Translations under genes and position numbers: made by a program | Notes under the pieces: model-generated | The model's database searches: none | Seen by the model: the letters and a program-made list of their open reading frames with translations, nothing else | What the model was told of the DNA's origin: nothing | Shown here: positions 35,269-54,668 of the stretch, one piece after another | Layout of the letters: each line of letters begins with the position of its first letter | Position numbering within the stretch: the stretch's first letter is position 1 | Source: an uncultured Nitrospiraceae bacterium | GTDB lineage: Bacteria; UBA10199; SBBF01 | Direction: 5' to 3' | Length of the DNA: 64,000 nt | Assembly (NCBI GenBank): GCA_964592255.1 | Contig: CAZQCI010000001.1 | Coordinates: 15,885 to 79,884 of the forward strand

Positions 35269-35637
35269 ATGGCGGATGCTAAAACCATTCTTGTTGTAGA
35301 AGATGAATATTTTTTGGCCGAATCTATCAAAGATCGTTTGGAATACTTAGGCTACCAAGTTTTACTGGCAGAACATGGTGAAGCCGCTCTTGAATTATTA
35401 AAAGAAAAAAAATGCAATTTGATTCTCTTAGACATCATCATGCCCGTTTTAGATGGCTGGGATACCCTCAAAGCCATTCGACAAAATTCTCAACTCAAAA
35501 ACTTGCCTGTCATTATGGTTTCAGCCAGAGCTACGGATCAAGACAAAGAAAAATCTCTGGCCTACGGAGCCAATGATCACCTGAACAAACCTTTCTCTTG
35601 GGATGATATGGCAGCCCTCATTAAAAAACACCTATGA
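35269..35637 (+). CDS. Stand-alone response-regulator receiver domain (CheY-like), first gene of the Pel-like operon
   Basis: Acidic pocket VVEDE. Phospho-acceptor D in LILLDIIMP. Conserved S (MVSA) and K (NKPF). 122 aa with no output domain. GGAG RBS. ATGA overlap with the next gene. Confidence 0.8.
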   Translation: MADAKTILVVEDEYFLAESIKDRLEYLGYQVLLAEHGEAALELLKEKKCNLILLDIIMPVLDGWDTLKAIRQNSQLKNLPVIMVSARATDQDKEKSLAYGANDHLNKPFSWDDMAALIKKHL

Positions 35638-36449
35638 GACAATGGCTTCTTGTTTTATGCCTGCTTTTCCTCACATCGTGTTCTTCACGTCTGCATTGGG
35701 TTATTTATTATGGATCCACACCGCCTAGTACACCGCTCAAAAAAGTCGATTGGGCTATTTTAGAACCAGACAATCTCCAGCCTTCTTCACTTAAAAATCC
35801 GAAAATTAAAACGTTAGGTTACATCAGCTTGGGTGAAATTAATAGCTCCCGTTCTTATTGGCCCAAAATTCAAAACTCTTCTTTTATTGTAGAAGAAAAC
35901 CCCAACTGGCCTGGAGCTTACCGTGTAGATATTCGCTCGACGGACTGGCAAGACTTATTGATCCAACAAATTCTTCCTTCCATATTAAATCAAGGATTTG
36001 ATGGTTTTTTCTTAGACACAGTAGATACAGCACTGTATCTGCAAGAAAAAGATCCCGTAAAATATTCACATTCTCAAGAAGCCATGGTGAATTTTATTAA
36101 GAAAATACGTGCTTCTTTTCCCAAAGCCCTCATTGTTCCCAATAATGGTCTCGAAATGCTGCCGGAAATCGGAAAAAATATCGACGCCATATTGGTAGAA
36201 GACCTTTATACCCGTTATGACTTCAACAACAAAACTGTCATCGCCACTCCAACTGAAGTAAGTCTAACCAAGGAAAAAATGTTGGATAAATTTACACACG
36301 ATTTCCACAAGCCCGTATTGGCTTTACTCTATGAAAATTCCACTAATACCCCTCTCACAAAACATGCTATAAGTAAGTGTAAAGAAAAGGATTATAGCTG
36401 GGCTGTCACAACAGTGGATCTGATGCACTGGAACGTGCCTACCCATTAG
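35634..36449 (+). CDS. Lipoprotein TIM-barrel glycoside hydrolase of the GH114/GH166 type (PelA hydrolase-domain-like)
   Basis: Lipobox FLTSCSS. Motif GFDGFFLDTVD is typical of the GH114/TM1410-like endo-alpha-1,4-hexosaminidase fold. 271 aa. 6-nt gap to the next gene. Confidence 0.55.
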   Translation: MRQWLLVLCLLFLTSCSSRLHWVIYYGSTPPSTPLKKVDWAILEPDNLQPSSLKNPKIKTLGYISLGEINSSRSYWPKIQNSSFIVEENPNWPGAYRVDIRSTDWQDLLIQQILPSILNQGFDGFFLDTVDTALYLQEKDPVKYSHSQEAMVNFIKKIRASFPKALIVPNNGLEMLPEIGKNIDAILVEDLYTRYDFNNKTVIATPTEVSLTKEKMLDKFTHDFHKPVLALLYENSTNTPLTKHAISKCKEKDYSWAVTTVDLMHWNVPTH

Positions 36450-36455
36450 CCATTT

Positions 36456-38525
36456 TTGAAAAATTTTATTCAACAATTGATTATTGTATTTTCTCTGTTG
36501 CTCCCTGCTCTTTCGGGTTTAGCAGCCTCTCAAGAGCCTCTTTCACGGAAAGTATTAGCGCTTTATGAATCCAGCGTTTATTCAGATCCAGCCTCTACAC
36601 TCATTCATCGGACGGCAGAACTCACATTAAACTATTTGGGCCTACAAGTGGAATACCGCCCCGTGGAAAGCCCCCTTCCTTCTGATGATGACATGCAGCC
36701 TTACATAGGCTTCATCACTTGGTTTACCAATGAAAATGCCGTCCCCCATCCGGATCTTTACTGTCAATGGATGCGCCATCAGATTCAAACAGGAAAAAAA
36801 ATAGTTCTCTTAGAAAACTGGGGATTGTTTCAAGACAAAAAACGTCATCTCAGCCCCATATGTGAAGACACTTTTAAAAAATTGGGAATAGAATACAAAG
36901 GGGAATACGCCGACAACCCCTACTTTTTAGAAGTAGCGGAACAAAAAACAGAATGGGTAGAATTTGAACGAAAAATTAATTTTACCGAAAACCTCACTTA
37001 CAGTTGGTTTAAAGCCATTGATCCCCAAAGTACCGTCTACCTTAAAGTTCGTAGAACGGACATGGTGAATAGTGAATCAGACATGGTTGTCACCACCCCT
37101 CAAGGTGGCTTTGTAGCACCAACCTGGCTCATCTATAACGACACAGAAACGAATCATATTCAATGGCGTGTTAATCCTTTTTTATTTTTTGAAAAAGCGT
37201 TTGACGTACCAGACTGGCCGCGCCCCGATACAACAACTTTAAATGGAAACCGAATTTTTTATAGCCACATTGATGGTGATGGCATTTTTAATATTTCTAA
37301 AATTGATCAAAAATCATTTTCTGGAGAAGTGATCTTAAATGAAATTTTAAAGCAATACCCCTCACTCCCTATCACACTCGGCCTCATCACAGGCTACATG
37401 GACTTGAAGGAATTCAACAATCCACGCACTCAAAAGCTGTACCGCGAGATGATAGAATTGCCGCAAGTAGAAATTGCCTCGCATGGCTATGCCCATCCTT
37501 TGGTTTGGAAAACAGGAGAACTGTCTTTAAAAATTCCAGATTACAACATGAATGCCGAAAAAGAAATCAACGGATCTATTCAGCAACTCAACCAAATGAT
37601 TGAGTCTTTAGGAATCACGTATAAAAAAACCTCTCTCTTTCAATGGACAGGAGACTGCACCCCTTCCGCCATACAAATTAAAATGGCAGAACAAACGGGG
37701 TTACCTAATCTTAATGGAGGTGGTGGGCGCCAAGATGACAATTTCTATGGTTTAGCGGCCCTCTACCCCATCGGCATTACAAAAGAAGGCGCCCATCAAA
37801 TTTATGCCGGGGCTTTTAACGAAAATAATTTCACCAATCTGTGGAGCGGCCCTTATTATGGGTTTGCCCACTTACTCTCCACATTGGACAAAACCGAAAA
37901 CCCTCTACGCCTTAAAGCCGTAGATGTTTATTATCATTTTTACAGTGGGGAACGTTGGGCTTCACTAAAAGCTGTGAAAAAAATTTATGATTCCTTTTTA
38001 AACAAAAATATCTTCCCCATTCATGCCAGCCAATACGCCAGAATTGCTGAAGGATTTTACACAACTGAAATTAAGCGCATTGCCAGTGGTCATTTTGTCG
38101 TTAGTAAAAATGGAGTCTTACAAACCATTCGTTTTGACCATGAAAAAAGAAATCTAGACCTCTCTCAATCGACAGGTGTTCTAGGTTTTATTCACGATAA
38201 AAATGCCCTGTATGTTTCATTAGATGAATCGGAAAACCACGTCATTCAACTATCAGAGGCTCAGCCCTCTTCTCCTTACTTAATTCAATCTACTTTTCAG
38301 GTTTCGCAACTAACAAAAAAAGTGGAGGGCTTTTCGTTTCAAAAACAAGGATGGTTAAAAAGTCATTGCCTTTGGGGAGGGCTAAGACCCAACCACAGTT
38401 ACCGAGTCATAACACAAGATGAAACTCAACGATTAACAACTTCTTCAACAGGGGAATTGAAAATAGACTTTCAAAAAAGTGAAAATGGATTAACCCCCGT
38501 CTTAGTAAGGGTTGAAGCAGAATAA
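36456..38525 (+). CDS. Periplasmic polysaccharide deacetylase (CE4/NodB-homology) multidomain protein, equivalent to the C-terminal two-thirds of PelA
   Basis: Signal peptide MKNFIQQLIIVFSLLLPALSGLAA. CE4 motifs FYSHIDGDG (MT1-like) and EIASHGYAHP (HxxxHP, MT2). 689 aa. Overlaps the PelB-like gene. Confidence 0.6.
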   Translation: MKNFIQQLIIVFSLLLPALSGLAASQEPLSRKVLALYESSVYSDPASTLIHRTAELTLNYLGLQVEYRPVESPLPSDDDMQPYIGFITWFTNENAVPHPDLYCQWMRHQIQTGKKIVLLENWGLFQDKKRHLSPICEDTFKKLGIEYKGEYADNPYFLEVAEQKTEWVEFERKINFTENLTYSWFKAIDPQSTVYLKVRRTDMVNSESDMVVTTPQGGFVAPTWLIYNDTETNHIQWRVNPFLFFEKAFDVPDWPRPDTTTLNGNRIFYSHIDGDGIFNISKIDQKSFSGEVILNEILKQYPSLPITLGLITGYMDLKEFNNPRTQKLYREMIELPQVEIASHGYAHPLVWKTGELSLKIPDYNMNAEKEINGSIQQLNQMIESLGITYKKTSLFQWTGDCTPSAIQIKMAEQTGLPNLNGGGGRQDDNFYGLAALYPIGITKEGAHQIYAGAFNENNFTNLWSGPYYGFAHLLSTLDKTENPLRLKAVDVYYHFYSGERWASLKAVKKIYDSFLNKNIFPIHASQYARIAEGFYTTEIKRIASGHFVVSKNGVLQTIRFDHEKRNLDLSQSTGVLGFIHDKNALYVSLDESENHVIQLSEAQPSSPYLIQSTFQVSQLTKKVEGFSFQKQGWLKSHCLWGGLRPNHSYRVITQDETQRLTTSSTGELKIDFQKSENGLTPVLVRVEAE

Positions 38526-41499
38526 AATGAATTACTCACGGACTCAAATTATTATCTTCTTTATCGCCATTGTGGTTCTAGGATGGCTTTTATACCCGCG
38601 TACGCTTTTTCTTGGATTTATTTATGAAGGCTCAGCTTCATTAGAAAAATCAGAAAATTATTATCAACAGTATTTGGCTAAAAAACCTTTCAACCGCTTT
38701 GCCACATTACGTTTGGTCGATATCTACGAACGTATGGGGGAACCTGAAAAAGCCACTCCTCTCTATACCAATCTCTATTCCCATCGCCTTCACGATTGGG
38801 ATTTGGCTCAAAAATATTTAAAGCATTTAGAAAACAAAGGCGACTTTGAAGCCGCCTATAAACTAAGACAAGAAATAGCCCATAACTTTTTTGACGAAAA
38901 AAATATCCCACGAGAAAAAATTCAAGATCTGCTGACGCAAGCATTTAAATATGCTCAATGGAAACAAAAAACGGAAGAGGCTTATCAGCTCTTACAAAAA
39001 ATAGCGGATATTTCAAAAAATCCAGACGCCACTCTTCAAACCCTACATTGGCTCGATTTAGGCCTGAAACATACCGATAAAATCATCGCACGGCTCAAAA
39101 AACAATTGGCTGAAAACCCACATGATAAAAATAGTCGCCGTGAACTTATTTCTGTCCAAATGGCATCTAAAAACTTTGAAGAAGCTTACCAAACTATTGA
39201 CGAGGGATTAACGCAAGATCCGCGTGACACGACTTTACTCAAACAACGTATTCAACTTGATGCAATAACTGGAAAATCGGAAATAGAAATCAAAGATACG
39301 CTCAAAATACTCAATCTGGCGACATTATCTTCAGAGGAGACAATCTATTTCAAGCTACACTTAGTATTTTTGTATCAAAAAATAGGACGTCTGGAAGAAG
39401 CGCTCCCTCTTTTTGAAGAACTCACAAAGACCAACCCTAAAAATAAGGACATTTGGAAAAACTGGGCTTTTGTCTTAACACAGGATCAAAAAATAGATGC
39501 GGCTCTCAAGGTATTGGAAAAAAGTCGGTTTTATTTTCCTGATGATCTGGACTTAGAAGAACAACAAGTCTCTCTTCTTCTCTACCAGAAAAAAGACACC
39601 TCTTCCGTTGCTTTGTATGACGATTTTCTAAAGAAAAAACCCAAACCTTCTTTTGCCTTAGACGTGGCCTATCTTCTACTGGATCAAAAAGAAAAAAACA
39701 AAGCCCAAAACTGGTTAAACCGTGCATTAAAACTATTCCCCGAAAATGATAAACTCATCTTTTTGCTAGCGGATGTGAATGTTGAATTAGGTTTGCTTGA
39801 AGATGCTGATTTTTTGCTCACTTCTTATCTAAAAAAACACCCAAACAATTCTACAGCTCATTTAAAAACCGCTCATTTAGCAGCTATACGCTTTCAATTT
39901 GCCGCGTTAGAGCAACATTTACAGCAATACTTAAGCCTTGAAAAAAATAAGTTCCAATCTCTCATCGCAGCCGGACAAGAATATTTGTTCGCAGGCCTTA
40001 ATTCACAAGCGCAAAACTATTTCCAAAAAGCCCGTGACCAAAACCCGAAAGACCCGACTCCCTGGTTTTGGCTATCTGCAGCTTATTGGAGTCAAAACTC
40101 AAAAAAGTCCTCACAACAATCAGCCCATCAGGCAAGTCTCCTTTTCTCTAAAAAGAAAAGTAATACTACTTGGGAACGATTAAGCCTTAAAGCTCAAGCA
40201 ATGGCTCGTTTTGATGAAGACATACGCCAAAAATATAAAAAAGCCTTGGAGCGCCATCCAAAAGATTTTGATTTTTACGCTGACTTTGCGGACGTGCTTC
40301 TTATGGAACAAGAAAACACCTTGGCTGCCGAAATTATTAAAACAATCGAGCAAAAATTTTCACAAAGACCAGAGGATGTCATTTCTCTTAAAGTGCGTTT
40401 AGCTCAACAGCAACACGATTGGAAAGAAGTGATTGATTTACTTAATAATCACCCAAAACCTTATTTAAGAGACACAAAAACTTTGGCGGAAGCTTACGCC
40501 GCCAATGGGCAATGGAAAAAAGCCATGGACTATTATCAGCAATTATCCTCATCCTCCGATGAGGAAGCTCAGAAAAAACTAGGTTTAACCGAGGAAGCAG
40601 CCAAACTCCATGCCGAATATGATCATCGCATTGGTCAAAACTTTCATTATCTGGATTTAGGAAACGATACCATCATTGAAGAGGGAATTTTCACTAAACA
40701 TTACTTAAATGAATCACTCAAGATAACGGGTGAATTTGTCTGGGGGCACTATCAATCCCCCGGAATTGATTTTGAGGGAAACGCAGAATATGGTAGGATC
40801 CTTCTTTCAAAACAATGGGGGCCCCAATGGCAACTTGAAGGAGGTCTGGGGTTTGGGGTGAGTGAGCAACATGAAACAGTGTCACCTTTATTAGGAATAC
40901 GCTACAAACCTTGGGAGAAACTTTTATTGGAAATGCAAGGAAGTCTTCGGGAATTAAGAACGGATCTTCCCCAATCGGTAGCCCGGGGCGCACTAAAAAG
41001 CCAAGTGTCTTTTCAGTGGAATTGGCAAGCTACTTCCCGTTTTAATTTTTCCGGCACTTATCGTCTGGGAAAAAATAGCTTAAGCGGAGGAGAAAAAGCT
41101 TGGGAACAAAGTTTTGAACCGTCGCTTTCGTTTCTATTGCTGCGCCAACCCGATGTATTTATAGGCTACCAGTTCAGCCTGGTTCATGTAGATGACAATG
41201 ACGGTTTTTTAAGAAAACTCCCCTTGCTACCCGATGTGAGGGCGCATTATTTAACAGCTGGGTTTAATCATCCCATCACCCCAACCTTTAAGGTGGCAAG
41301 TGGCTTTTTTCTGGGTGAAGACACGGCAAGAAACCTTCATTTTTTTGAAGGCGATTTATGGGGGGCCAATGCCTCCTTTGTGTGGAACCTCACCTCATGG
41401 TTAGATATGACAGGTTTTTATAGTTACGGCAGAGAAACTCTCACTGAAAGCGCCGGTCAGAGCCATAATCTCAACTTCGGCTTTTCAGGACATTGGTAA
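38512..41499 (+). CDS. pelB: PelB-like outer-membrane export protein: N-terminal TM anchor, long TPR array, C-terminal beta-barrel porin
   Basis: TM IIIFFIAIVVLGWLLYP. About 700 aa of TPR-like helical repeats. C-terminal region of alternating amphipathic beta strands ending …NLNFGFSGHW (aromatic terminus typical of OM barrels). Alternative start ATG 38527. Confidence 0.7.
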   Translation: MKQNKMNYSRTQIIIFFIAIVVLGWLLYPRTLFLGFIYEGSASLEKSENYYQQYLAKKPFNRFATLRLVDIYERMGEPEKATPLYTNLYSHRLHDWDLAQKYLKHLENKGDFEAAYKLRQEIAHNFFDEKNIPREKIQDLLTQAFKYAQWKQKTEEAYQLLQKIADISKNPDATLQTLHWLDLGLKHTDKIIARLKKQLAENPHDKNSRRELISVQMASKNFEEAYQTIDEGLTQDPRDTTLLKQRIQLDAITGKSEIEIKDTLKILNLATLSSEETIYFKLHLVFLYQKIGRLEEALPLFEELTKTNPKNKDIWKNWAFVLTQDQKIDAALKVLEKSRFYFPDDLDLEEQQVSLLLYQKKDTSSVALYDDFLKKKPKPSFALDVAYLLLDQKEKNKAQNWLNRALKLFPENDKLIFLLADVNVELGLLEDADFLLTSYLKKHPNNSTAHLKTAHLAAIRFQFAALEQHLQQYLSLEKNKFQSLIAAGQEYLFAGLNSQAQNYFQKARDQNPKDPTPWFWLSAAYWSQNSKKSSQQSAHQASLLFSKKKSNTTWERLSLKAQAMARFDEDIRQKYKKALERHPKDFDFYADFADVLLMEQENTLAAEIIKTIEQKFSQRPEDVISLKVRLAQQQHDWKEVIDLLNNHPKPYLRDTKTLAEAYAANGQWKKAMDYYQQLSSSSDEEAQKKLGLTEEAAKLHAEYDHRIGQNFHYLDLGNDTIIEEGIFTKHYLNESLKITGEFVWGHYQSPGIDFEGNAEYGRILLSKQWGPQWQLEGGLGFGVSEQHETVSPLLGIRYKPWEKLLLEMQGSLRELRTDLPQSVARGALKSQVSFQWNWQATSRFNFSGTYRLGKNSLSGGEKAWEQSFEPSLSFLLLRQPDVFIGYQFSLVHVDDNDGFLRKLPLLPDVRAHYLTAGFNHPITPTFKVASGFFLGEDTARNLHFFEGDLWGANASFVWNLTSWLDMTGFYSYGRETLTESAGQSHNLNFGFSGHW

Positions 41500-41503
41500 A
41501 GAT

Positions 41504-41869
41504 ATGGGAAAAAAAATATTGTTAATCGACGATGAAGTAGATTTTACTGAAGTGGTGGGCACCTTGCTGCGTTTTCATGATTTCGACGTAGACACTATCA
41601 ATGAGCCTCTTCTAGCTCCTGAAGCTATTAATAAAAATAATTATGATCTCATTGTTAGCGATTTGATGATGCCCGATATCAACGGCTTTGAATTGGTCGA
41701 GAAGATTAGGACCATGCCGCGCTACAAAGACACCCCAATCATTACCTTGTCGGCAAAACTCCTTAACGATGAAGAAAGAAAACAATTGCTCCATCATGGT
41801 GTTCATTGTTTATCTAAACCATTCGAGCCCAGTGGATTGGTAGATCAAATTTGTCAATTACTTGGCTAA
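41504..41869 (+). CDS. Second stand-alone CheY-like receiver domain, between the pelB- and pelD-like genes
   Basis: LLIDDE acidic pocket. D in DLIVSDLMMP. S in ITLSAK. K in LSKPF. 121 aa, no output domain. The start lies 4 nt after the pelB stop. Confidence 0.8.
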   Translation: MGKKILLIDDEVDFTEVVGTLLRFHDFDVDTINEPLLAPEAINKNNYDLIVSDLMMPDINGFELVEKIRTMPRYKDTPIITLSAKLLNDEERKQLLHHGVHCLSKPFEPSGLVDQICQLLG

Positions 41870-41905: not shown

Positions 41906-43294
41906 ATGAGTAGGGAGAAAATTTCGGATTTGAAACGATACTCTTATTTGTACGAAATTCCTCTTTTTTACTTGGTTTTATGTGGAATCAATTTCTACCT
42001 GGTGCCGGAATATCCTTCTTTTTTTGGCATTGATCCCCATCCTTATTGGTTAGGCATTGTATTATTTGCCTTCCGGTATGGATTAGTCCCCTCACTCATC
42101 TCAGGCGTGTTATCAGCCCTATTATTTTTATTCGGAATATTCTTATTTGGAGAACGCTATCTTTTTGAAGACGCCGTTTTCTTCCTTCTACCCTCTTTCT
42201 TCATCATTGTTTCAACTTGCCTAGGTTTCTTAACACGCCAAACACATAAAAAAATAATCCAATTCCAAGACGCCGAAATAAGCGCCAGTCAAAAGGAAAA
42301 ACATTTAAACGAAGAAATAAAAACCCTAACCGAAATTAATAATAACCTTGAAAAAAGAATAGTCACTCGTATGTCAACCTTGGTGACTTTATATGAAGGA
42401 GCCAGGAGGCTTGAAACTCACGATATCGAAGAGCTTTACAAATCAGGCTTGGACTTTATCACTAAAACATTAGGAGCCGATGAAGCAGCCATTTATCTTA
42501 AACAAAACAATGAATGGCATTTAAAAGAAAGCATTGGCTGGAAAGAGTACGAAAAGCATCCAAAAATATTAAAATGGTCCGAGGGCCTAACCGGACTTGC
42601 AGGATCTACGAATAAGATTGTCAGCATTCGTGATTTTATGGGTCACAGCCCTAAAGAACTCCCTAATATATTTAGCGACGCACTAGTAGCCGCTCCTTTA
42701 CGCTTAGGGGAGCATGGCAAAGTCATCGGTGTAATTGCCATTCAACGAATGCCTTTTTTAAGTTTCACTAGCTCTTCAGTCAACCTCTTCTCTTTTCTCA
42801 TGAACTGGATTTCACGTTCCGTAGGAGAAGCTTCGTATATTCAAGAGTTAAAAGAACAAGAAATTATCGATCCAGAACTTCAGGTATATTCTCATTCTTA
42901 TTTTTTATCTCGTGCACGGCAAGAATTCTTACGATCAAAAAACTATTATTTACCTCTTGGGCTTGGAGTTGTCTCCTTCGATCAAACCACTCCTTTATCT
43001 GCCAAAGAAAATAAACGCCTTCTCTTAGCCATAGCCCAGCTCCTTAAACAAAACATACGTGAAATGGATGTGGTTGCACGCTTTCCTTCTTCAGAACACC
43101 CTTTTTCTATTCTCTTCATCACAGCTAGCCCTAAACAAACCGAAGAGATGACTGAAAAAATAACGCATGCTTACCAGGAATTAAAATTAGTCGATGCTAA
43201 AGGTAAGCCCCTGCCTCTTATTAAAATTAAATTGTCTCATTTTTCCCCACAAGTGGCCGATATCGATCAAATGCTTCGAGAGGCTCTCATATGA
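41906..43294 (+). CDS. pelD: PelD-like inner-membrane c-di-GMP receptor (4 TM + GAF + degenerate GGDEF)
   Basis: Four N-terminal TM helices. GAF-like region (LGADEAAIYLKQNNEWHL…VIGVIAIQRMPF). C-terminal degenerate cyclase-like domain. An RxxD (REMD) lies five residues upstream of where a degenerate GG(D/E)EF would sit (ARFPS…). ATGA overlap with the next gene. Confidence 0.6.
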   Translation: MSREKISDLKRYSYLYEIPLFYLVLCGINFYLVPEYPSFFGIDPHPYWLGIVLFAFRYGLVPSLISGVLSALLFLFGIFLFGERYLFEDAVFFLLPSFFIIVSTCLGFLTRQTHKKIIQFQDAEISASQKEKHLNEEIKTLTEINNNLEKRIVTRMSTLVTLYEGARRLETHDIEELYKSGLDFITKTLGADEAAIYLKQNNEWHLKESIGWKEYEKHPKILKWSEGLTGLAGSTNKIVSIRDFMGHSPKELPNIFSDALVAAPLRLGEHGKVIGVIAIQRMPFLSFTSSSVNLFSFLMNWISRSVGEASYIQELKEQEIIDPELQVYSHSYFLSRARQEFLRSKNYYLPLGLGVVSFDQTTPLSAKENKRLLLAIAQLLKQNIREMDVVARFPSSEHPFSILFITASPKQTEEMTEKITHAYQELKLVDAKGKPLPLIKIKLSHFSPQVADIDQMLREALI

Positions 43295-44328
43295 TGCATG
43301 CACGATTCATGTTTTTTTGGGGTTTAAGTGGTCTCTGTGAGTTTCCGTTTCTCCAAACTCTATTAGGTTTTCCTTATTTTTTTAAAGGGCACACTCCCTT
43401 TGTGGTCTTACTGCATGTGACGGGATCCGTATTGCTCTTTTTTTGTGTCCCCAAAGGAGAAGGCTGGTTTCATCCGGCACGCATGGGCGCAAAAACCTTT
43501 TTCTACATGGGGCTTTTTTTGCCGTTTGTAGGATGGATCATTTCCGGAATCTTATACATTCATTTCATCAAAGAAAAAGACAAACCCTATACTATAAACC
43601 AGGAAGATGATGATAATTTTTTCATGGACTCATTTCCTTCTTTATCCCTTTCTATTCAGCTTCCACGGCGAAATCGTCTTCAAAAACAATTGGATTTTAT
43701 TCCTTTAGTAGACATCATCCGAGGACCGGAAGAGATAGAGCTTAAACGTGGAGCTATCGAAAAACTTGCTCAAATTAATACCCCAGAAACAATCGACCTA
43801 CTTTTCTCTCTACGTAGCGATCCAGTCATGGAAGTGCGTTTCTATGCTACGTCTGCTTTGGGAAAAATCAAAAAAGAATTTGATGAACGTCTTGATGCTG
43901 CCAAAGAAGAAATAAAAAAAACAAGCCCCAGCAGTAAGGCACGACTCAACTTAGCTCAGGCTTACTTAGAATATGCCCAATCTCATCTTTTGGATAAAGT
44001 AACAACTTCCGCCTACGAAACAGAAGCTCTGTTTCACTTGCAGGAAGAGCTCAACAACCCCTTCCCTTCCCTACAAGCCTTTTGGATGCTCATTGATTTA
44101 TACAAAAATCATCGTCGATGGGAGCAAGCATTAGATTTACTAGAAAAATTGGAGCACCACCCGGAAACAGAAATTATTTTAGTTTTAAAAAGTAAAATTG
44201 AAATTATTTATTTGATGCAACGCTATCAAGAAATACCGGTTTTATTAGAAAAACTGACTCAAAAAAATAAATTACCAGACGAATGGACCGCTCTAGCACA
44301 ATGGTGGGGGGCCCATGTTGAACATTAA
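43291..44328 (+). CDS. pelE: PelE-like inner-membrane protein (N-terminal TM helices plus HEAT/TPR-like helical repeats)
   Basis: Hydrophobic N-terminal 100 aa. Helical repeats follow (PETIDLLFSLRSDPVMEVRFYATSALGKI; LNLAQAYLEYAQSH). Position between pelD and pelF. 345 aa. Confidence 0.5.
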   Translation: MMHARFMFFWGLSGLCEFPFLQTLLGFPYFFKGHTPFVVLLHVTGSVLLFFCVPKGEGWFHPARMGAKTFFYMGLFLPFVGWIISGILYIHFIKEKDKPYTINQEDDDNFFMDSFPSLSLSIQLPRRNRLQKQLDFIPLVDIIRGPEEIELKRGAIEKLAQINTPETIDLLFSLRSDPVMEVRFYATSALGKIKKEFDERLDAAKEEIKKTSPSSKARLNLAQAYLEYAQSHLLDKVTTSAYETEALFHLQEELNNPFPSLQAFWMLIDLYKNHRRWEQALDLLEKLEHHPETEIILVLKSKIEIIYLMQRYQEIPVLLEKLTQKNKLPDEWTALAQWWGAHVEH

Positions 44329-46279
44329 AAAAATTAAAGAACTCATTCATGGACCCAGTGAAGACGGTCGATTTGAAGCCTTTTTAGAGCTCTTTGAATC
44401 GGAAGATCCCAAAGCTTTGGAGGAAATACATCATATACTCACATCTCCCGACCCAGTGATTAAAATTAAATTCTTGCGCTTCTTATCACACGCAGAATCA
44501 GAAAAATCTTTGCCATTAATTGTTACATGCTTAAAAGATAAAAATCCCATCGTCATCAACGTGGCTCGAAAGGTTTTTGAAAAAAATACTTTTCCTTTAA
44601 AGTTTCGAAGCCTTCTTCCATTTCTCAACGCCCCTCACGATGATTTATTTACTTATGCGGTAAAAGCGTTAGCTCAGGCGGGTATCACCGAAATTATTGA
44701 ACCTTTATTTGAACAGCTAAAAAGAGTGGGGGAAGAAAGGCAGCTGATTATTTTATCGGTTTTACGTTGGCTTCCCGAAGAAAGAATGATTCCTGTTCTC
44801 CTGTCTTATCTTAAATCAAAAAATGACAATATCCGCTATAAAACTTTAATGGTCTTTGGAAGTCTATTGAGTGCAGGCCATAGTTCGGCACGCAAACATC
44901 TACTTCCCTCTCTCAAGGATAACAATGCCTCAATTCGGCAAGCTGTTTTATGGTGTTTAAAAAGAGCCCCTTCAAAAAAAGATTATTCAATTTTTTTAAA
45001 TTACTCACAAAAAGATCCAGATCCTTTAGTCAGACAAGAAGCTCTAATAGGGCTGAGTACTTTTCCCCCACGAAAAATTATTTTGCCTATTCTTTCTCTC
45101 ATGGCGACTGAAAAATCACGCATGGTTTTATTGAAAGGAGAAGGACTTCTTTTGGGAATAAACATTCAAGATCTGGAATCCGAGTTAAGTAAAGCGCTTC
45201 AATCCAAAAATACCAAAATTAGAGAAAGAGCCCAACTGTTAATGTCGGAATTAGGACGCAATTCGGAAAGTTTTTGTAAAAAATTACTCGAAAAAGCCAT
45301 GCGGATCAAATCACCTAAAGAAAGACTCACTTTAATTGAAGCACTAGGCAATACACAAAGTCACAATGCCATTGCCTGGCTGGAAACCCTGCTCAACACA
45401 GATCCCTTAACATCCTATGCAGCTATTTCGGCCTTGTTAAAAATTTGGGGCGAAAACCCACAACAACCCATTCTTAAATATTTACAACATCAAAAATCAG
45501 CCATTACCCGCCAAAACGTACTCAAGCATCTGGTTAAAAAAAATATCCCTTTGAAAAGCAATACTGATTTAGAAAAATATCTGATGGGTCTTTTAGAAGA
45601 CGCCAATTTAAATATTCGATATCTAGCAACTCAAGCCTTGCTCAAGATCAACAGCTCAATGCTGCTACACCCCTTAATGAAAACATTACTTAACGAGTCT
45701 GACCCCACAACTTTTCAACTTTTGCGACAAAGTATTTTATCTTTACTAGCAAAAAACCCCCAATTAATCGGTCCAATGTTAAAATTGTATTATCAAGACA
45801 GTAAGGCTCTTCATACTTTAATCAACCTGATGAGTGAAATCGACTTGGAAGGATCTCATTCTTTAGAACTATTAATCATTCTCTTATCCCCACCTTTCAT
45901 GCTGGATAACTCGCCTTTGCTTCAAGAAGCGGTCCGTTTCATCCTCATCCAATATCTTCAAGATAAAATTCGCTTAGAAGATGTGGTTGAAAGCGTATCT
46001 ACTATTCCACAACGGGATTTGATTTTTGATTGTTTATATACTCAACTAGAAAATCAATCTAGCTCTATGCGCCCTATTTTTTCTAAATCTAAAATTGAAA
46101 CCTGGCTTCATAACGACTGCCTGCTCTCCCCTTCCTTATTACGGCTACTCGCTTTAAGTCAGGATGAAAAATTAATCGCTGTATTAGTTCAATTCACATC
46201 ACAAAAACCTTTAGCACCATACAAAGCAGAATTGATCCATACTCTTAATCGGATGATTTGGCAGGAGGCCTGCTCATGA
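44315..46279 (+). CDS. Large HEAT-repeat (PBS-lyase-type HEAT-like) protein embedded in the Pel-like operon
   Basis: 654 aa. More than 10 repeats of about 30 aa with the pattern D/NPxVRxxAxxALxxIG (e.g. DPVIKIKFLRFLS, NASIRQAVLWCLKRAP, DPLVRQEALIGLS, NLNIRYLATQALLKI). No TM or signal. Overlaps both neighbours (14 and 22 nt). Confidence 0.6.
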   Translation: MLNIKKIKELIHGPSEDGRFEAFLELFESEDPKALEEIHHILTSPDPVIKIKFLRFLSHAESEKSLPLIVTCLKDKNPIVINVARKVFEKNTFPLKFRSLLPFLNAPHDDLFTYAVKALAQAGITEIIEPLFEQLKRVGEERQLIILSVLRWLPEERMIPVLLSYLKSKNDNIRYKTLMVFGSLLSAGHSSARKHLLPSLKDNNASIRQAVLWCLKRAPSKKDYSIFLNYSQKDPDPLVRQEALIGLSTFPPRKIILPILSLMATEKSRMVLLKGEGLLLGINIQDLESELSKALQSKNTKIRERAQLLMSELGRNSESFCKKLLEKAMRIKSPKERLTLIEALGNTQSHNAIAWLETLLNTDPLTSYAAISALLKIWGENPQQPILKYLQHQKSAITRQNVLKHLVKKNIPLKSNTDLEKYLMGLLEDANLNIRYLATQALLKINSSMLLHPLMKTLLNESDPTTFQLLRQSILSLLAKNPQLIGPMLKLYYQDSKALHTLINLMSEIDLEGSHSLELLIILLSPPFMLDNSPLLQEAVRFILIQYLQDKIRLEDVVESVSTIPQRDLIFDCLYTQLENQSSSMRPIFSKSKIETWLHNDCLLSPSLLRLLALSQDEKLIAVLVQFTSQKPLAPYKAELIHTLNRMIWQEACS

Positions 46280-47736
46280 TCGACGTATGCCTCCTCTTAG
46301 AAGGAACCTATCCTTATGTCGCTGGAGGAGTATCCACGTGGGTTCATCAACTTATTTCTTCCATCAAAGATTTACGCTTTGGTATTTTATTCATTGCACC
46401 TTATTCAGACCCTACACGCACTCTAAAATATGAAGTACCCAACCATGTGCTCTATCTGAAAGAAATTTATTTACACGACTACAACTTAGAATTACGACCC
46501 AAAAGAAAACCAACCTCACAAGACTATGAACTGATTAAAAAATTTTATGAAAATGTTCAAAAAGAGGATTTCAAGTTATTTGCTAACTTTGTTCGCCTCT
46601 TCCAAGGAGAAAACTCATGTTTCGGCATCCAAAATCTTTTTAATTCGGAGCAAACCTGGGATTTGCTTACTTATTTTTACGAACGATATGCGGGTGATAT
46701 TTCTTTCATTGATTATTTTTGGACTTGGCGAGGTACCCATTTACCCTTGATGCAAATGCTCACTGCAGAAATTCCACGAGCTAAAATTTACCATGCCGTC
46801 TCAACCGGTTATGCAGGTCTTATTGGAGCCATTGCTAAACAATTCAATCAAGGAAAGTTTTTTTTAACAGAACACGGGCTCTATACTCACGAGCGCATGC
46901 TAGAAATCTCACAAGCCTCTTGGATTTATGAACAGAAAAAAAGAGATTTCAAAGCCGAAAAAGGATTTTCTTTTTTTAAGCAATGGTGGATTACCATTTT
47001 TGATACTCTCAGTCGTTTAGCCTACGATTCAGCCGACAATATTTATACTCTATTTGAAGGCAACAAAAGACGGCAAATTTTACAAGGCGCACAAGCCGAT
47101 AAAATCACAGTCATCCCTAACGGCATTGATGTTATCGCCTTTGAAAAAATTGAGCGGAGTAAAAAAACACACCCACAAATAGGTCTTATTGGACGAGTTG
47201 TCACAATTAAAGATATCAAAACATATATTCAAGCAGCCCGTATTGTTCTTCAAAAGTTACCGACAGCCTCTTTTTACATCATTGGCCCTACGGATGAAGA
47301 GCAAGAATATTTTGAAGAATGTAAAATGATGGTGGAAGCCCTGCACATGGAAAATAATATTATCTTCACGGGGCGAGTAGACCCAAAAACCTATTATGCG
47401 TTTCTGGACTTAGTAGTCCTTACCAGTATTTCAGAAGCCCAACCTTATGTCATTTTAGAAGCCAATGCCGTAGGCATACCGGTAGTAGCCAGCGATGTGG
47501 GGGCTTGCCGAGAAATGCTGGAAGGAAGCAGTTCTTTGGATCGGACCTTAGGAGTGAGTGGTAAAATCACAGAAGTATCCAACCCTGACGATACAGCTAA
47601 AGCCATTGTAGAGATTATGACCAACGAAACCCTGTATCGGCATATGAGCCAAACGGGAAAACAAAGAGTGAAACAATATTATGACGATCGTGATTTGATC
47701 AGCAAATACATAAATATTTACGAAAAAAACTTATAA
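46258..47736 (+). CDS. pelF: PelF-like cytoplasmic GT4 glycosyltransferase with an N-terminal DUF3492-type domain
   Basis: N-terminus MIDVCLLLEGTYPYVAGGVSTWVHQLI matches the PelF/DUF3492 start. C-terminal GT4 region (EAQPYVILEANAVGIPVVASDVGACREML). Confidence 0.8.
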   Translation: MAGGLLMIDVCLLLEGTYPYVAGGVSTWVHQLISSIKDLRFGILFIAPYSDPTRTLKYEVPNHVLYLKEIYLHDYNLELRPKRKPTSQDYELIKKFYENVQKEDFKLFANFVRLFQGENSCFGIQNLFNSEQTWDLLTYFYERYAGDISFIDYFWTWRGTHLPLMQMLTAEIPRAKIYHAVSTGYAGLIGAIAKQFNQGKFFLTEHGLYTHERMLEISQASWIYEQKKRDFKAEKGFSFFKQWWITIFDTLSRLAYDSADNIYTLFEGNKRRQILQGAQADKITVIPNGIDVIAFEKIERSKKTHPQIGLIGRVVTIKDIKTYIQAARIVLQKLPTASFYIIGPTDEEQEYFEECKMMVEALHMENNIIFTGRVDPKTYYAFLDLVVLTSISEAQPYVILEANAVGIPVVASDVGACREMLEGSSSLDRTLGVSGKITEVSNPDDTAKAIVEIMTNETLYRHMSQTGKQRVKQYYDDRDLISKYINIYEKNL

Positions 47737-47745
47737 CTTATTCTT

Positions 47746-49152
47746 ATGGCTGGCATTGGCTTCAGATTACAAAAACTTCTTGCGGGTGAGTCCTACACTG
47801 ACTTGATACGGGCTTACTTATACTCTTCTGTTATCACTTCAGGACCTATGATCATCGTCATGATCACTTTAATGCTGACTAACTCTCTCATTAGTCATAA
47901 CCTAGATTTAGAAGCAGCTAAAAATATACTCCCACTCATCATTTACGTTTATGCTTTTTCCATGGTTGGCGTAGGGCCTTTTGTCTATGTCGTCACCAGA
48001 AATATTGCAGATAAATATTATTTGAAAGAAATAGAATCTTTCACTCCCATTTACTTTGCAACATTGGAAATTGTATTTATATCTCAAACTTTACTCGCCT
48101 TGCCTTTTCTTGTCTTTTCTTCTTTTGATTTCACCACTAAATGGGTCGTACTTTGTCTCTATCTTCTAGTAAGCGGAATTTGGGTAGCCATGCTTTTTCT
48201 TTCTGCCGCCAGAAGTTACTTGTGGATTGTAGGAGGCTTTATTTTTGGAGGCCTAGCCGGGCTAGCCTTTTCCTGGTTTTTAAGTCGGATAGAGGGGCCT
48301 CTTGGTTTTATTAAGGGCTATACGCTAGGCCAAGGAGTCACTTTTTTAATTTTATGCCTGCGTATTTTTAAAGAGTTCGGTTATCGCTTTAACCATGATT
48401 ATGGTTTTCTACTTTATTTCAAACGTTACAATTCTTTGGCCTGGGTTGGTTTTTTTTATTATGCCGGTATCTGGGTCGATAAATTTATATTTTGGTTTTT
48501 TGGACCCGAAAGCAACATGGTTCATGGTTTAAAAATTTATAATAATTATGACACCCCTCTTTTCTTATCATTCATCAGTGTCATTCCTTCCATGGCTTTT
48601 TTTCTCATTCAAATGGAAACCAACTTTGTACGGCATTACCATTCTTACTACAAAGCCATACGCGAGCGTGGTTCCCTGCTTCTCATCAGAGAAAAAAAGA
48701 AAAAAATCATCGAAACTCTCAGCCAGCATTTTCAAAAATTTGCCATTCTACAGGGGCTTTTTACAGCCGTAATCATCCTATTTATTGTTCCATTATCTGA
48801 AGCCCTTGGGCTTAACCCTTATCAAGTAGGCATTCTACGGATCAGCCTGTTAGGATCTTACTTACTCATGGGTTATGTGATGGTACTTAATATTTTATTT
48901 TATTTTGAACTACAAAAAGAAGCGTTTTGGATTTCTGCCATTTTCTTTTTCGGAAATGCCCTCTTTACTTTTGCCACTTTAAAAATTGGATTTGCCTCTT
49001 ACGGTTTTGGATATACTTTAGCCTCTTTTGTAAGTGTCATGGTAGGCTTTATCGTATTAAATCGTCGGTTAGAAAAACTGAACTGCTTAACCTTTATGAA
49101 TCAACCTATTTTAGTCCCTCAGTTTAAATTAGAAAATGAAGAGCAAAACTAA
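47746..49152 (+). CDS. pelG: PelG-like polysaccharide exporter (MATE/MOP-like, 12 TM)
   Basis: N-terminus MAGIGFRLQKLLAGESYTDLIRAYLYSSVITSGPMI resembles the conserved PelG start. 468 aa, polytopic. Confidence 0.7.
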   Translation: MAGIGFRLQKLLAGESYTDLIRAYLYSSVITSGPMIIVMITLMLTNSLISHNLDLEAAKNILPLIIYVYAFSMVGVGPFVYVVTRNIADKYYLKEIESFTPIYFATLEIVFISQTLLALPFLVFSSFDFTTKWVVLCLYLLVSGIWVAMLFLSAARSYLWIVGGFIFGGLAGLAFSWFLSRIEGPLGFIKGYTLGQGVTFLILCLRIFKEFGYRFNHDYGFLLYFKRYNSLAWVGFFYYAGIWVDKFIFWFFGPESNMVHGLKIYNNYDTPLFLSFISVIPSMAFFLIQMETNFVRHYHSYYKAIRERGSLLLIREKKKKIIETLSQHFQKFAILQGLFTAVIILFIVPLSEALGLNPYQVGILRISLLGSYLLMGYVMVLNILFYFELQKEAFWISAIFFFGNALFTFATLKIGFASYGFGYTLASFVSVMVGFIVLNRRLEKLNCLTFMNQPILVPQFKLENEEQN

Positions 49153-50249
49153 AACATAAAACGTCTCATACTAATATTAAGTGCAAGGGCCAAGGCAATC
49201 CAGTTAGCAAGCAGAGCCGAGCCACCATAACTAAAAAAAGGTAAAGGAACTCCTGTTAAGGGCATCAAGCCTAACACACCCCCCAAGTTAATAACCATGT
49301 GCCAAAACACTAAACTAGCCAAACCAACACATAAAAAGAAACAAAAACGCTCATGAGAATGAAATGCAATATTCAATTCCAACAACAAAAAAGCCAAATA
49401 GAGTAGTAAGATAAAAGAACAACCTAAAAAACCCCATTCTTCTGCCAAAACGCTAAAAATAAAATCGGTATGCCGTTCAGGAACAAATTTTAACTTATGG
49501 GTTTGTCCTTTCAGATACCCTTTACCTACCCATCCTCCGGATCCTACAGCAATACGTGACTGGATGACGTGATAACCAGCACCTTTACGATCCATTTCTG
49601 GATTCATAAAGGTTGTAATACGATCTTTTTGGTACGGAGATAAAAATGAATAAGCCACCACACACAAAATAATACCTCCAGAAGCTAAGCTCGCTATCAC
49701 TTTCCAACGGATGCCTTGAAGAAGAGCTAAGGTTAAATAAATTAAACCAAAAAATAAACTGGAACCTAAATCCCCTTGTTTTAACACCAAAAGAGCAGGA
49801 AGAAGAAAAAGTATAAATGAAGGAATTAAATCAAGAAAACCCGCAACCCTTGAAGAGGGTTGATCAGAAAAATATTTAGCCAATCCAAAAATCAATCCTA
49901 ATTTTGCCAACTCACTGGGCTGAAGACTAATCCCCCCAAACTGCAACCAGCTTTGATGGCCTGCAATTTTTCTACCCACCACAAGAACCAGTATCAATAA
50001 AAGCAAACTCATACCGTAAAAAAAGTAACTAGCATGGGATAAATGGCGATAATGGATGCTCACAATGACAATCATCAACCCGAAACCAATGCCACTCCAC
50101 ATTAATTGGGCTCGAAACAAAGCACCAATGCTATGGACATCAAAACTGGAAGTGGCACTACGCAAGTTCAATAAACCCATTCCAGCCAACAAAAAAGCCA
50201 CAATTAACAAAGGCCAATTAAAATGAGTTAAGAGTCGTCTATCAAACAT
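49149..50249 (-). CDS. rodA: Peptidoglycan glycosyltransferase RodA (SEDS family)
   Basis: 366 aa, 10 TM. SEDS motifs (…VPERHTDFIFSVLAEEWGFLG…; GVLGLMPLTGVPLPFFSYGGSAL). The stop overlaps the pelG stop by 4 nt (convergent). Confidence 0.9.
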   Translation of the reverse strand: MFDRRLLTHFNWPLLIVAFLLAGMGLLNLRSATSSFDVHSIGALFRAQLMWSGIGFGLMIVIVSIHYRHLSHASYFFYGMSLLLLILVLVVGRKIAGHQSWLQFGGISLQPSELAKLGLIFGLAKYFSDQPSSRVAGFLDLIPSFILFLLPALLVLKQGDLGSSLFFGLIYLTLALLQGIRWKVIASLASGGIILCVVAYSFLSPYQKDRITTFMNPEMDRKGAGYHVIQSRIAVGSGGWVGKGYLKGQTHKLKFVPERHTDFIFSVLAEEWGFLGCSFILLLYLAFLLLELNIAFHSHERFCFFLCVGLASLVFWHMVINLGGVLGLMPLTGVPLPFFSYGGSALLANWIALALALNISMRRFMF

Positions 50250-50260
50250 AATGGATTCTC

Positions 50261-52707: not shown

Positions 52708-52724
52708 AAGAGAAGTGTTTAGTT

Positions 52725-53555: not shown

Positions 53556-53603
53556 ACAGGAAGAATATTTCTTCTCCTTTGATAAGGAGAGATGAAGGAG
53601 AGA

Positions 53604-54668
<1,065 letters not shown>

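What the first reader, a model, noticed from the sequence alone, without database searches (positions are those of the whole stretch)
41906..43294. PelD-like receptor appears to retain an RxxD I-site alongside the operon-encoded receivers
The C-terminal degenerate cyclase-like domain contains REMD followed five residues later by ARFPS. This is the position where an I-site RxxD precedes the degenerate GGDEF in PelD. The locus may therefore integrate c-di-GMP (via this protein) and phosphorylation (via the two RRs).
Basis: inference. Interest (0 to 1): 0.5.

Follow-up and report, generated by a model that had tools for sequence, protein, structure and literature searches.

The report
Divergent PelD keeps its c-di-GMP site
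This gene encodes a distant relative of PelD, the sensor that switches on Pel biofilm-sugar production when it binds c-di-GMP. It keeps the known RxxD binding motif in the right place, which is expected for PelD, but the third key arginine is a lysine and the operon carries two extra phospho-receiver genes.

Summary
ORF 41906-43294 (+, 462 aa) has four TM helices, a coiled coil, a GAF domain and a catalytically dead GGDEF domain. It lies in a complete pel operon.

- **RxxD position.** Its only RxxD (R385-E-M-D388, nt 43058-43069) sits five residues before the slot of the GGDEF motif. That slot is P394-S-S-E-(H-P)-F400, not "ARFPS".
- **Homology to PelD.** Profile-profile alignment to canonical PelD gives probability 98.8%, E 1e-16, over 376 columns from the TM domain to the GGDEF domain. 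It places R385 on R367 and D388 on D370.
- **Conservation.** R385 is kept in 62 of 63 orthologues and D388 in 63 of 63.
- **Caveat.** The third residue essential in P. aeruginosa and B. cereus PelD (R402/R395) is K418 here. That column is poorly conserved in this clade.
- **Binding.** c-di-GMP binding is likely but unproven.
- **Receivers.** Both keep their phospho-acceptor residues. RR2 lies between pelB and pelD in every orthologous locus with upstream sequence, where PelC normally sits. Dual c-di-GMP and phosphorylation control is therefore plausible, but it is inference.

The I-site itself is ordinary PelD biology. The operon layout with receivers and a HEAT-repeat protein, and without PelC, was not described in the papers I could search.

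The parts
41906..43294 (+). PelD-like protein, 462 aa (the stop codon is 43292-43294)
   Evidence: ORF. hhalign to canonical PelD: probability 98.8%, E 1e-16, residues 13-425 against PelD 17-409. AF2 model has pLDDT 93.4. Foldseek places PelD crystal chains at ranks 3-9.
41945..42235 (+). N-terminal membrane domain, residues about 14-110, four helices, with the conserved W48 and R57-Y58-G59 motif
   Evidence: Helices in the AF2 model. W48, Y58 and G59 are invariant here. They align to the invariant W50, R61, Y62 and G63 of canonical PelD.
42236..42409 (+). Long juxtamembrane helix or coiled coil, residues about 111-168
   Evidence: Continuous helix 90-168 in the model. It aligns to the PelD juxtamembrane region, including E149 on E150.
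42422..42817 (+). GAF domain, residues 173-304
   Evidence: Pfam GAF_3 at 2.2e-9 and GAF at 7.4e-9. It aligns to the PelD GAF domain.
42842..43291 (+). Degenerate, catalytically dead GGDEF domain, residues about 313-462
   Evidence: PF00990 scores 22.1 bits, below the cut-off. The clade profile hits DgcR 6zxm at E 1.6e-13. The metal- and GTP-binding positions are S357, P363 and K370 rather than D, N and D (alignment).
43058..43069 (+). RxxD I-site motif, R385-E-M-D388
   Evidence: Translation. It aligns to PelD R367/D370 and to the DgcR I-site RKSD. Conserved in 62/63 and 63/63 orthologues.
43085..43105 (+). Slot of the GG(D/E)EF motif, P394-S-S-E-H-P-F400, degenerate with a two-residue insertion
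   Evidence: HMM alignment to 'RFGGEE--F' of DgcR. These columns vary across the clade.
43157..43159 (+). K418, the equivalent of PelD R402, PleD R390 and B. cereus PelD R395. It is Lys, not Arg.
   Evidence: Three independent alignments agree. Column counts: K37, R6, Q6, N5, T4, S2.
41504..41869 (+). RR2, a stand-alone CheY-like receiver of 121 aa, immediately upstream of pelD in the position where PelC normally sits
   Evidence: Pfam Response_reg 1.8e-20. Best PDB matches are the stand-alone receiver chains 4ja2/3dge and CheY. D9/D10, D53, S83 and K105 are conserved in 11 orthologues. Synteny.
35269..35637 (+). RR1, a stand-alone receiver of 122 aa, at the head of the operon
   Evidence: Pfam Response_reg 1.2e-28. 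Acceptor residues are intact. Present upstream of pelA in most orthologous loci.
35634..38525 (+). Split PelA: a GH114 hydrolase (35634-36449) and a deacetylase-like protein (36456-38525)
   Evidence: PF03537 at 1.6e-21. The second protein matches PelA of canonical operons at 179-254 bits.
38512..41499 (+). PelB-like protein with TPR repeats and a C-terminal beta-rich region, 995 aa
   Evidence: TPR families. The orthologue in L005 carries PF24604 B-barrel_PelB_C.
43291..44328 (+). PelE-like membrane protein with helical repeats, 345 aa
   Evidence: Its position. HEAT_2 hit. Weak phmmer match to Pseudoalteromonas PelE, E 0.0014.
44315..46279 (+). Clade-specific HEAT-repeat protein of 654 aa, inserted between pelE and pelF
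   Evidence: HEAT_2 at 1.8e-36. Conserved at this position in all orthologous loci and not detected in canonical operons.
46258..49152 (+). PelF glycosyltransferase (46258-47736) and PelG (47746-49152)
   Evidence: NCBIfam PelF NF038011 scores 497 bits against a cut-off of 100. Pfam PelG PF16933 scores 404 bits.

Best explanation
The gene encodes a divergent orthologue of PelD, the inner-membrane c-di-GMP receptor of the Pel exopolysaccharide synthase complex. Its domains are four TM helices, a long coiled coil, a GAF domain and a GGDEF domain.

The GGDEF domain cannot make c-di-GMP. It has no GG(D/E)EF motif and has lost the metal- and GTP-binding residues. It keeps the allosteric I-site RxxD (R385, D388) at the homologous position.

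The most likely mechanism, by analogy with P. aeruginosa and B. cereus PelD, has three steps. c-di-GMP, probably as an intercalated dimer, binds the I-site face. This shifts the GGDEF domain relative to the GAF domain. That shift activates the PelD-E-F-G complex post-translationally.

**Shown here:** homology along the whole protein, position and conservation of RxxD, loss of catalytic residues, and operon membership.

**Inferred:** actual c-di-GMP binding, which is weakened as a claim by Lys418 in place of the essential Arg402, and the idea that the two conserved stand-alone receivers (RR1, RR2) add a phosphorylation-dependent input to the same machinery.
For: - **Operon.** PelF equivalog at 497 bits and PelG at 404 bits. 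GH114 and deacetylase halves of PelA, a PelB-like TPR protein and a PelE-like protein surround the gene.
- **Homology to PelD.** hhalign of 63 orthologues against 25 canonical PelD sequences: probability 98.8%, E 1e-16, 376 columns. The match covers the TM domain (W48, R57-Y58-G59 on PelD W50, R61-Y62-G63), the coiled coil, the GAF domain and the GGDEF domain. Against the P. aeruginosa PelD crystal sequence alone: probability 80.7%, E 1.3e-5, with the same register.
- **Fold.** AF2 model pLDDT 93.4. Foldseek gives PelD chains 4etz, 4euv, 4etx, 4dn0 and 4eu0 at E 5e-11 to 8e-10 over about 310-320 columns. Only the GAF-GGDEF cyclase Dcsbis ranks higher.
- **I-site.** REMD aligns to the I-site RKSD of DgcR (6zxm). 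The I-site mutant 6zxb reads AKSA in the same columns.
- **Conservation.** R385 62/63 and D388 63/63. [quoted passage not shown] RxxD is also kept in most of 116 broader full-length relatives: R 80/116, D 102/116.
- **Precedent.** RxxD plus a third Arg binds c-di-GMP and is needed for Pel production in P. aeruginosa (PMC2170427; PMC8461298) and in B. cereus (PMC7112168).
Against: - K418 replaces the Arg (R402 in P. aeruginosa, R395 in B. cereus) whose alanine substitution abolishes binding. That column is loosely conserved in this clade: K37, R6, Q6, N5, T4, S2.
- No clade member matches the Pfam PelD_GGDEF model PF16963 among the listed families.
- No GG(D/E)EF cyclase is encoded in the window or within 10 kb of the orthologues. 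It is therefore not shown that this organism makes c-di-GMP.
- No binding assay or ligand docking was possible.
Confidence: 0.62

Rival explanations
1. The I-site is a relic or has been repurposed. With Lys at the third position the domain no longer binds c-di-GMP with useful affinity. In this clade, control of Pel synthesis has shifted to the phospho-receivers RR1 and RR2. RxxD is then conserved for a structural or protein-contact role.
For: K418 replaces the essential Arg, and the column drifts to Q, N, T and S in 17 of 63 orthologues. RR2 is conserved and tightly linked to pelD in every orthologous locus, with 4-nt overlaps in some. No cyclase was found nearby.
Against: Near-absolute conservation of both R385 and D388 in a domain where almost everything else drifts is the signature of a ligand site. 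From general knowledge of GGDEF domains, RxxD is freely lost in cyclases that lack feedback inhibition, so it has no known structural necessity. Lys is a conservative change that keeps the charge.
Confidence: 0.22
2. RR2 is a physical partner of PelD at the I-site face. Phosphorylated RR2 docks on the GGDEF domain, and c-di-GMP cross-links the two proteins, as it cross-links the GGDEF domain and the receiver-like adaptor domain in PleD. RR2 would supply the basic residue that K418 provides only poorly.
For: RR2 and PelD are adjacent, with translational coupling in some relatives, in this clade and in at least one other lineage. RR2 orthologues share an invariant E-R-K in the motif 'EERKxLL' (the residue before it varies) and an almost invariant 'KPFEP' (KPFDP and KPYEP in one sequence each), beyond the generic receiver residues. 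The third I-site residue is unconstrained while RxxD is fixed. The PleD precedent comes from general knowledge.
Against: There is no direct evidence of interaction. No complex could be modelled with the tools. Some relatives with RDK triads may lack an adjacent receiver; one broader relative, P0236, has no upstream RR.
Confidence: 0.1
3. The protein is not a PelD orthologue. It is a generic TM-GAF-GGDEF signalling protein, possibly an active cyclase with feedback inhibition, that happens to sit in the operon.
For: Its GGDEF domain scores better against the generic PF00990 and against DgcR than against the PelD GGDEF region. PF16963 is not hit.
Against: Homology to PelD extends through the PelD-specific membrane domain and the coiled coil. 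The gene occupies the pelD slot in all orthologous loci. The GG(D/E)EF motif is absent, and the catalytic Asp, Asn and Asp positions are Ser, Pro and Lys, so cyclase activity is excluded.
Confidence: 0.03

Closest known systems
P. aeruginosa PelD (PA3061; PDB 4DN0, 4DMZ, 4EUV, 4ETZ)
   Same: - Same position in a pel operon.
- Same architecture: 4 TM helices, coiled coil, GAF domain and degenerate GGDEF domain.
- Homology along the whole protein.
- RxxD at the same aligned columns: R385 on R367 and D388 on D370.
- Crystal chains are among the top structural matches.
   Different: - Only about 18% identity in the aligned columns.
- The third binding residue, R402, is K418.
- The hairpin carrying the degenerate motif is two residues shorter (PSSEHPF against RNDEGRRVL).
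- The GGDEF domain is closer to generic GGDEF and does not hit Pfam PelD_GGDEF.
- R161 has no clear counterpart, because the alignment has a gap there.
- The upstream neighbour is a receiver protein, not PelC.
B. cereus ATCC 10987 PelD (Whitfield et al. 2020, PMC7112168)
   Same: It is a divergent PelD that standard domain searches miss as a GGDEF protein. It still binds c-di-GMP through RxxD (R363, D366) and needs that binding for biofilm formation. This is a precedent that distant PelDs keep a working I-site.
   Different: B. cereus keeps the third Arg (R395). Its operon is the Gram-positive pelDEA(DA)FG type, without PelB or receivers.
I-site of active Rec-GGDEF cyclases (Leptospira DgcR 6zxm; PleD)
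   Same: This is the best sequence match of the C-terminal domain: E 1.6e-13 with the clade profile. REMD lies on the I-site RKSD, A-R-F on S-R-F before the motif, and K418 on the Arg of 'DRVR'.
   Different: Those proteins are active cyclases in which the I-site mediates product inhibition. Here the catalytic half is destroyed and the site can only act as a receptor.
Dcsbis (PA2771; PDB 4ZMU)
   Same: Top Foldseek hit at E 3.3e-12. It shares the GAF-GGDEF two-domain fold.
   Different: It is a soluble, highly active cyclase. It has no PelD membrane domain and no pel context.

Membership tests
PelD (Pel biosynthesis inner-membrane protein) | Encoded in a pel operon with pelF and pelG, between pelB/pelC and pelE | tested here: met
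   PelF NF038011 at 497 bits and PelG PF16933 at 404 bits. PelB-like upstream and PelE-like downstream. The same order holds in 11 or more orthologous loci.
PelD (Pel biosynthesis inner-membrane protein) | PelD-type N-terminal four-helix membrane domain followed by a juxtamembrane coiled coil | tested here: met
   The hhalign match starts at residue 13 against PelD 17. The invariant W and R-Y-G motifs align. Helices are present in the AF2 model.
PelD (Pel biosynthesis inner-membrane protein) | Cytoplasmic GAF domain followed by a degenerate, non-catalytic GGDEF domain | tested here: met
   GAF at 2e-9 and GGDEF at 22 bits. The motif slot is PSSEHPF and the catalytic residues are lost. Foldseek matches PelD 158-CT over about 320 columns.
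PelD (Pel biosynthesis inner-membrane protein) | Match to the curated Pfam model PelD_GGDEF (PF16963) | tested here: not met
   PF16963 is not listed at E <= 1 for the window protein. It is not among the 25 most-matched families for the 63 orthologues. All canonical Pseudomonas-type PelDs carry it. The model appears to cover only the proteobacterial subfamily. Profile-profile comparison still gives 98.8% probability.
c-di-GMP receptors that use a GGDEF I-site (PelD-type) | RxxD five residues upstream of the GG(D/E)EF slot, homologous to PelD R367/D370 | tested here: met
   R385 and D388 align to R367 and D370 and to the DgcR I-site. Conserved in 62/63 and 63/63 orthologues.
c-di-GMP receptors that use a GGDEF I-site (PelD-type) | Third essential Arg on the following helix (PelD R402, B. 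cereus R395, PleD R390) | tested here: not met
   The aligned residue is K418 in three independent alignments. The column in the clade reads K37, R6, Q6, N5, T4, S2. It is invariant Arg in canonical PelD. The charge is kept but the guanidinium group is not.
c-di-GMP receptors that use a GGDEF I-site (PelD-type) | Measured binding of c-di-GMP that is lost on RxxD mutation | not testable with these tools
   This needs ITC, DRaCALA or SPR on the purified cytoplasmic domain.
Active diguanylate cyclase (GGDEF) | GG(D/E)EF motif and the metal- and GTP-binding Asp, Asn and Asp residues | tested here: not met
   The motif slot is PSSEHPF. S357, P363 and K370 occupy the catalytic positions in the alignment to DgcR. 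PF00990 scores below the gathering threshold.
Stand-alone phospho-receiver (CheY-like) for RR1 and RR2 | Acidic pocket, phospho-acceptor Asp, conserved Ser/Thr and Lys, and no output domain | tested here: met
   RR2: D9/D10, D53, S83, K105. RR1: E11/D12, D55, S85, K107. These are conserved across orthologues. Response_reg is the only family above its curated cut-off (RR1 also has a sub-threshold PDE8A_N hit). The best PDB matches are stand-alone receivers and CheY. A cognate kinase was not found in the window.

The most novel reading that the evidence does not exclude
In this clade Pel synthesis is gated by a two-signal switch built on PelD. The co-transcribed stand-alone receiver RR2 occupies the PelC slot of the operon and is translationally coupled to pelD in some relatives. 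When phosphorylated, RR2 docks on the I-site face of the dead GGDEF domain, and c-di-GMP cross-links the two proteins, as it does within PleD. RR2 supplies the basic residue that drifted away at position 418. Pel would then be made only when both the kinase signal and c-di-GMP are present.
Probability: 0.1. Interest if true: 0.65.

Novelty: new variant of a known kind. Interest (0 to 1): 0.33.

Why it matters
The I-site finding on its own adds little. PelD is the textbook case of a degenerate GGDEF receptor, and keeping RxxD is what one expects of an orthologue.

Two things go beyond that.

First, the third essential arginine is not universal. The R-D-K triad dominates this clade and recurs in about 15% of a broader set of PelD-like proteins. 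This gives a direct test of how much of the canonical I-site is really needed for c-di-GMP binding.

Second, this uncultured clade has a fixed pel operon layout. The MAGs are labelled Deltaproteobacteria, and one isolate name contains UBA10199. The layout has two stand-alone receivers and a large HEAT-repeat protein, and no detectable PelC. If the receivers act on the synthase complex, this would be a case of phosphorelay and second-messenger control converging post-translationally on an exopolysaccharide synthase.

Tried and rejected
- **Direct sequence search against PDB.** With the single protein, PelD matched only in the GAF domain, at E 0.8. With the clade profile it matched at E 0.004, again only in the GAF domain. 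Residue-level mapping of the I-site therefore needed another route.
- **How the mapping was obtained.** I recovered canonical PelD genes from plasmid-borne pel operons. I rebuilt the P. aeruginosa PelD crystal sequence from their PDB alignments. I then collected a PelD family and ran hhalign.
- **Primary structure paper.** Whitney et al. 2012 (PMC3390633) is not held. A review was used instead.
- **Source of the window.** An exact look-up of the window protein gave no contig and no name. The genome scan found only relatives of 51% identity or less.
- **Cyclase search.** A motif scan for GG(D/E)EF cyclases in the window and in the flanks of relatives found nothing.
- **Kinase search.** No histidine kinase was found in the window. 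Relatives have hybrid kinases next to the operon.
- **PelC search.** phmmer with two canonical PelCs found no homologue in the window or in the clade's loci. The 172-aa ORF at 34740-35258 has no family hit.
- **Three-dimensional check.** I could not test whether R385, D388 and K418 cluster in space, because model coordinates are not exposed.
- **Readings rejected.** An active cyclase and a non-orthologous GAF-GGDEF protein are both rejected; see the rival explanations.
Full report
**1. What is at the coordinates**

The ORF at 41906-43294 (+) is real. It starts with ATG and encodes 462 aa. Its orthologues cover 96-100% of its length.

It lies in a co-directional, tightly packed gene row:

| Gene | Coordinates | Evidence |
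|---|---|---|
| RR1 | 35269-35637 | Response_reg |
| GH114 hydrolase (half of PelA) | 35634-36449 | PF03537 |
| Deacetylase-like half of PelA | 36456-38525 | matches canonical PelA |
| PelB-like TPR protein, 995 aa | 38512-41499 | TPR families |
| RR2 | 41504-41869 | Response_reg |
| This ORF | 41906-43294 | see below |
| PelE-like membrane/repeat protein | 43291-44328 | position, weak PelE match |
| HEAT-repeat protein, 654 aa | 44315-46279 | HEAT_2 |
| PelF | 46258-47736 | NCBIfam equivalog, 497 bits, cut-off 100 |
| PelG | 47746-49152 | PF16933, 404 bits |

This is a pel-type exopolysaccharide operon, and the ORF occupies the pelD slot.

**2. The observation**

REMD is residues 385-388 (nt 43058-43069). 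It is followed by VVARFPSSEHPFSILFITAS. It is the only RxxD in the protein. About 0.65 occurrences are expected anywhere by composition, and about 0.002 at one fixed site.

Pfam finds a GAF domain at residues 173-304 and a sub-threshold GGDEF domain at 371-460, scoring 22.1 bits against a cut-off of 23.8.

In alignments to true cyclases, A391-R392-F393 match the residues before the motif (DgcR '...RKSDIISRFGGEEF'). The GG(D/E)EF slot is P394-S-S-E-(H-P)-F400, with a two-residue insertion. The canonical five-residue spacer between the D of RxxD and the motif is therefore kept.

The catalytic half of the domain is destroyed. The positions of the metal-binding Asp, the guanine-binding Asn and the guanine-binding Asp are S357, P363 and K370.

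**3. Is REMD homologous to the PelD I-site?**

Plain HMMER linked the protein to PelD only through the GAF domain. I therefore built two family alignments:
- A1: 63 orthologues of 37-52% identity from metagenomes.
- A2: 25 canonical PelD proteins, including full-length P. aeruginosa PelD.

Profile-profile comparison gives probability 98.8% and E 1e-16 over 376 columns. It covers query residues 13-425 against PelD 17-409. The match includes the PelD-specific membrane domain: W48 and R57-Y58-G59 align to PelD W50 and R61-Y62-G63, which are invariant or nearly invariant in both families. It also includes the juxtamembrane helix, the GAF domain and the GGDEF domain.

In this alignment, and in the one against the crystal sequence alone, R385 falls on R367 and D388 on D370. 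Independently, the clade profile aligns REMD to the RKSD I-site of the Leptospira cyclase DgcR (6zxm, E 1.6e-13). The deposited I-site mutant 6zxb reads AKSA in those columns.

The AlphaFold model is confident, with mean pLDDT 93.4. Foldseek against the PDB returns PelD 158-CT chains (4etz, 4euv, 4etx, 4dn0, 4eu0) at E 5e-11 to 8e-10, aligned over the whole crystallised region. They rank just behind the GAF-GGDEF cyclase Dcsbis.

**4. Conservation**

R385 is present in 62/63 orthologues and D388 in 63/63. D388 is one of four invariant residues in the whole C-terminal domain. The motif slot (394-398) is highly variable.

An exhaustive profile search of 1.84 billion representatives finds 565 proteins at E <= 1e-30. 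Among 116 broader full-length relatives, R is kept in 80 and D in 102. RxxD is thus a family-wide constrained feature of PelD-like proteins.

**5. The caveat: the third residue**

In P. aeruginosa PelD, the substitutions R367A, D370A and R402A each abolish binding and pellicle formation (PMC2170427). A review calls R402 absolutely required, and R161 contacting but dispensable (PMC8461298). In B. cereus PelD the equivalents are R363, D366 and R395 (PMC7112168).

All three alignments place K418 on R402. The register is fixed by P389 on I405 and by the hydrophobic helix positions.

R402 is invariant in canonical PelD. In this clade column 418 reads K37, R6, Q6, N5, T4, S2. In the broader set the triads are RDR 39, RDK 17 and RDN 9.

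So the site is two-thirds canonical. The third position keeps a positive charge in the window protein but is not under the same constraint. Whether Lys can substitute is unknown to me and untested here.

**6. The receivers**

RR1 and RR2 are single-domain receivers with intact acidic pocket, acceptor Asp, Ser/Thr and Lys. RR2's best solved relatives are stand-alone receivers of about 122 aa (4ja2, 3dge) and CheY.

In every orthologous locus with upstream sequence, the order PelB - RR2 - PelD - PelE - HEAT - PelF - PelG is kept. These loci are L003-L010 and L012-L017, at least 11 distinct MAGs. RR1 precedes pelA in most of them.

In canonical operons the gene between pelB and pelD is PelC. No PelC homologue is detectable in the window or the clade.

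In some relatives the RR2 stop overlaps the pelD start. An RR-PelD pair with a 4-nt overlap also occurs in a more distant lineage (P0224), but not in another (P0236).

No histidine kinase is encoded in this window. Hybrid kinases flank the operon in relatives. No GG(D/E)EF cyclase is encoded in the window or near the relatives.

**7. Most likely mechanism**

Shown:
- A PelD orthologue with a dead cyclase domain.
- A conserved, correctly placed RxxD.

Inferred by analogy with the two characterised PelDs:
- c-di-GMP binds the I-site face.
- The GGDEF domain shifts relative to the GAF domain.
- The PelDEFG complex is activated.

I put about 0.6 on this. The main rival, at about 0.2, is that the site no longer binds c-di-GMP usefully and the receivers have taken over control. 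A more speculative reading, at about 0.1, is that RR2 docks at the I-site and c-di-GMP bridges the two proteins, as in PleD. An active cyclase or a non-orthologous GAF-GGDEF protein is effectively excluded.

**8. Comparison with what is known, and novelty**

A c-di-GMP I-site in PelD is established biology, from Lee 2007, Whitney 2012 and Whitfield 2020. The core of the finding is confirmation that a distant member follows the rule.

The systematic pel-operon survey I could read does not mention receivers (PMC7112194). A full-text search found no description of receiver-containing pel operons. The clade's layout, with two receivers and a HEAT protein and without PelC, and the Lys-type I-site look like an undescribed variant of a known system.

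Interest is modest, at about 0.33.

Noticed in passing
window 41504-41869 (RR2); L003-L017: A stand-alone receiver gene sits between pelB and pelD, where PelC sits in canonical operons. This holds in every orthologous locus with upstream sequence. No PelC homologue is detectable in the window or the clade by phmmer with two canonical PelCs.
   Followed up: partly
window 44315-46279: A 654-aa all-HEAT-repeat protein lies between the PelE-like gene and pelF. It is conserved at that position in all orthologous loci and was not detected in canonical proteobacterial pel operons. Its function is unknown.
   Followed up: partly
window 35634-38525: PelA is split into separate GH114 hydrolase and deacetylase-like genes, as in Gram-positive pel loci. 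Some relatives (L003, L008, L015) show no detectable hydrolase gene next to the deacetylase gene.
   Followed up: no
L037 7642-9377 (P0224): In a more distant PelD-like lineage, a 120-aa receiver gene overlaps the pelD start by 4 nt. A 186-aa protein and a 1194-aa TPR protein lie upstream. The RR-PelD pairing is therefore not confined to the window's clade.
   Followed up: partly
L003 2195-4225; L006 1-1130; L005 18289-20661: Hybrid histidine kinases (PAS-HisKA-HATPase-REC) flank the operon in relatives. None is encoded in the 64-kb window, so the two receivers here are orphans with respect to local kinases.
   Followed up: partly
window 32844-34697 and 34740-35258: Just upstream of RR1 lie a 617-aa 'choice-of-anchor I' domain protein (PF22494, E 1e-124) and a 172-aa ORF with a hydrophobic N-terminal stretch and no family match. 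It is unclear whether they belong to the operon.
   Followed up: no
window 49149-54665 (- strand): A cell-shape cluster lies immediately downstream on the opposite strand: RodA/FtsW, PBP2-type transpeptidase, MreC and MreB. MurJ is at 29116-30756 (- strand) upstream. These are ordinary housekeeping genes.
   Followed up: no
L008, L017 (record titles): Orthologous loci come from MAGs labelled Deltaproteobacteria (one isolate name contains UBA10199), and also from MAGs labelled Nitrospira sp. and Elusimicrobiota. This reflects either binning or labelling noise, or horizontal spread of this operon type.
   Followed up: no
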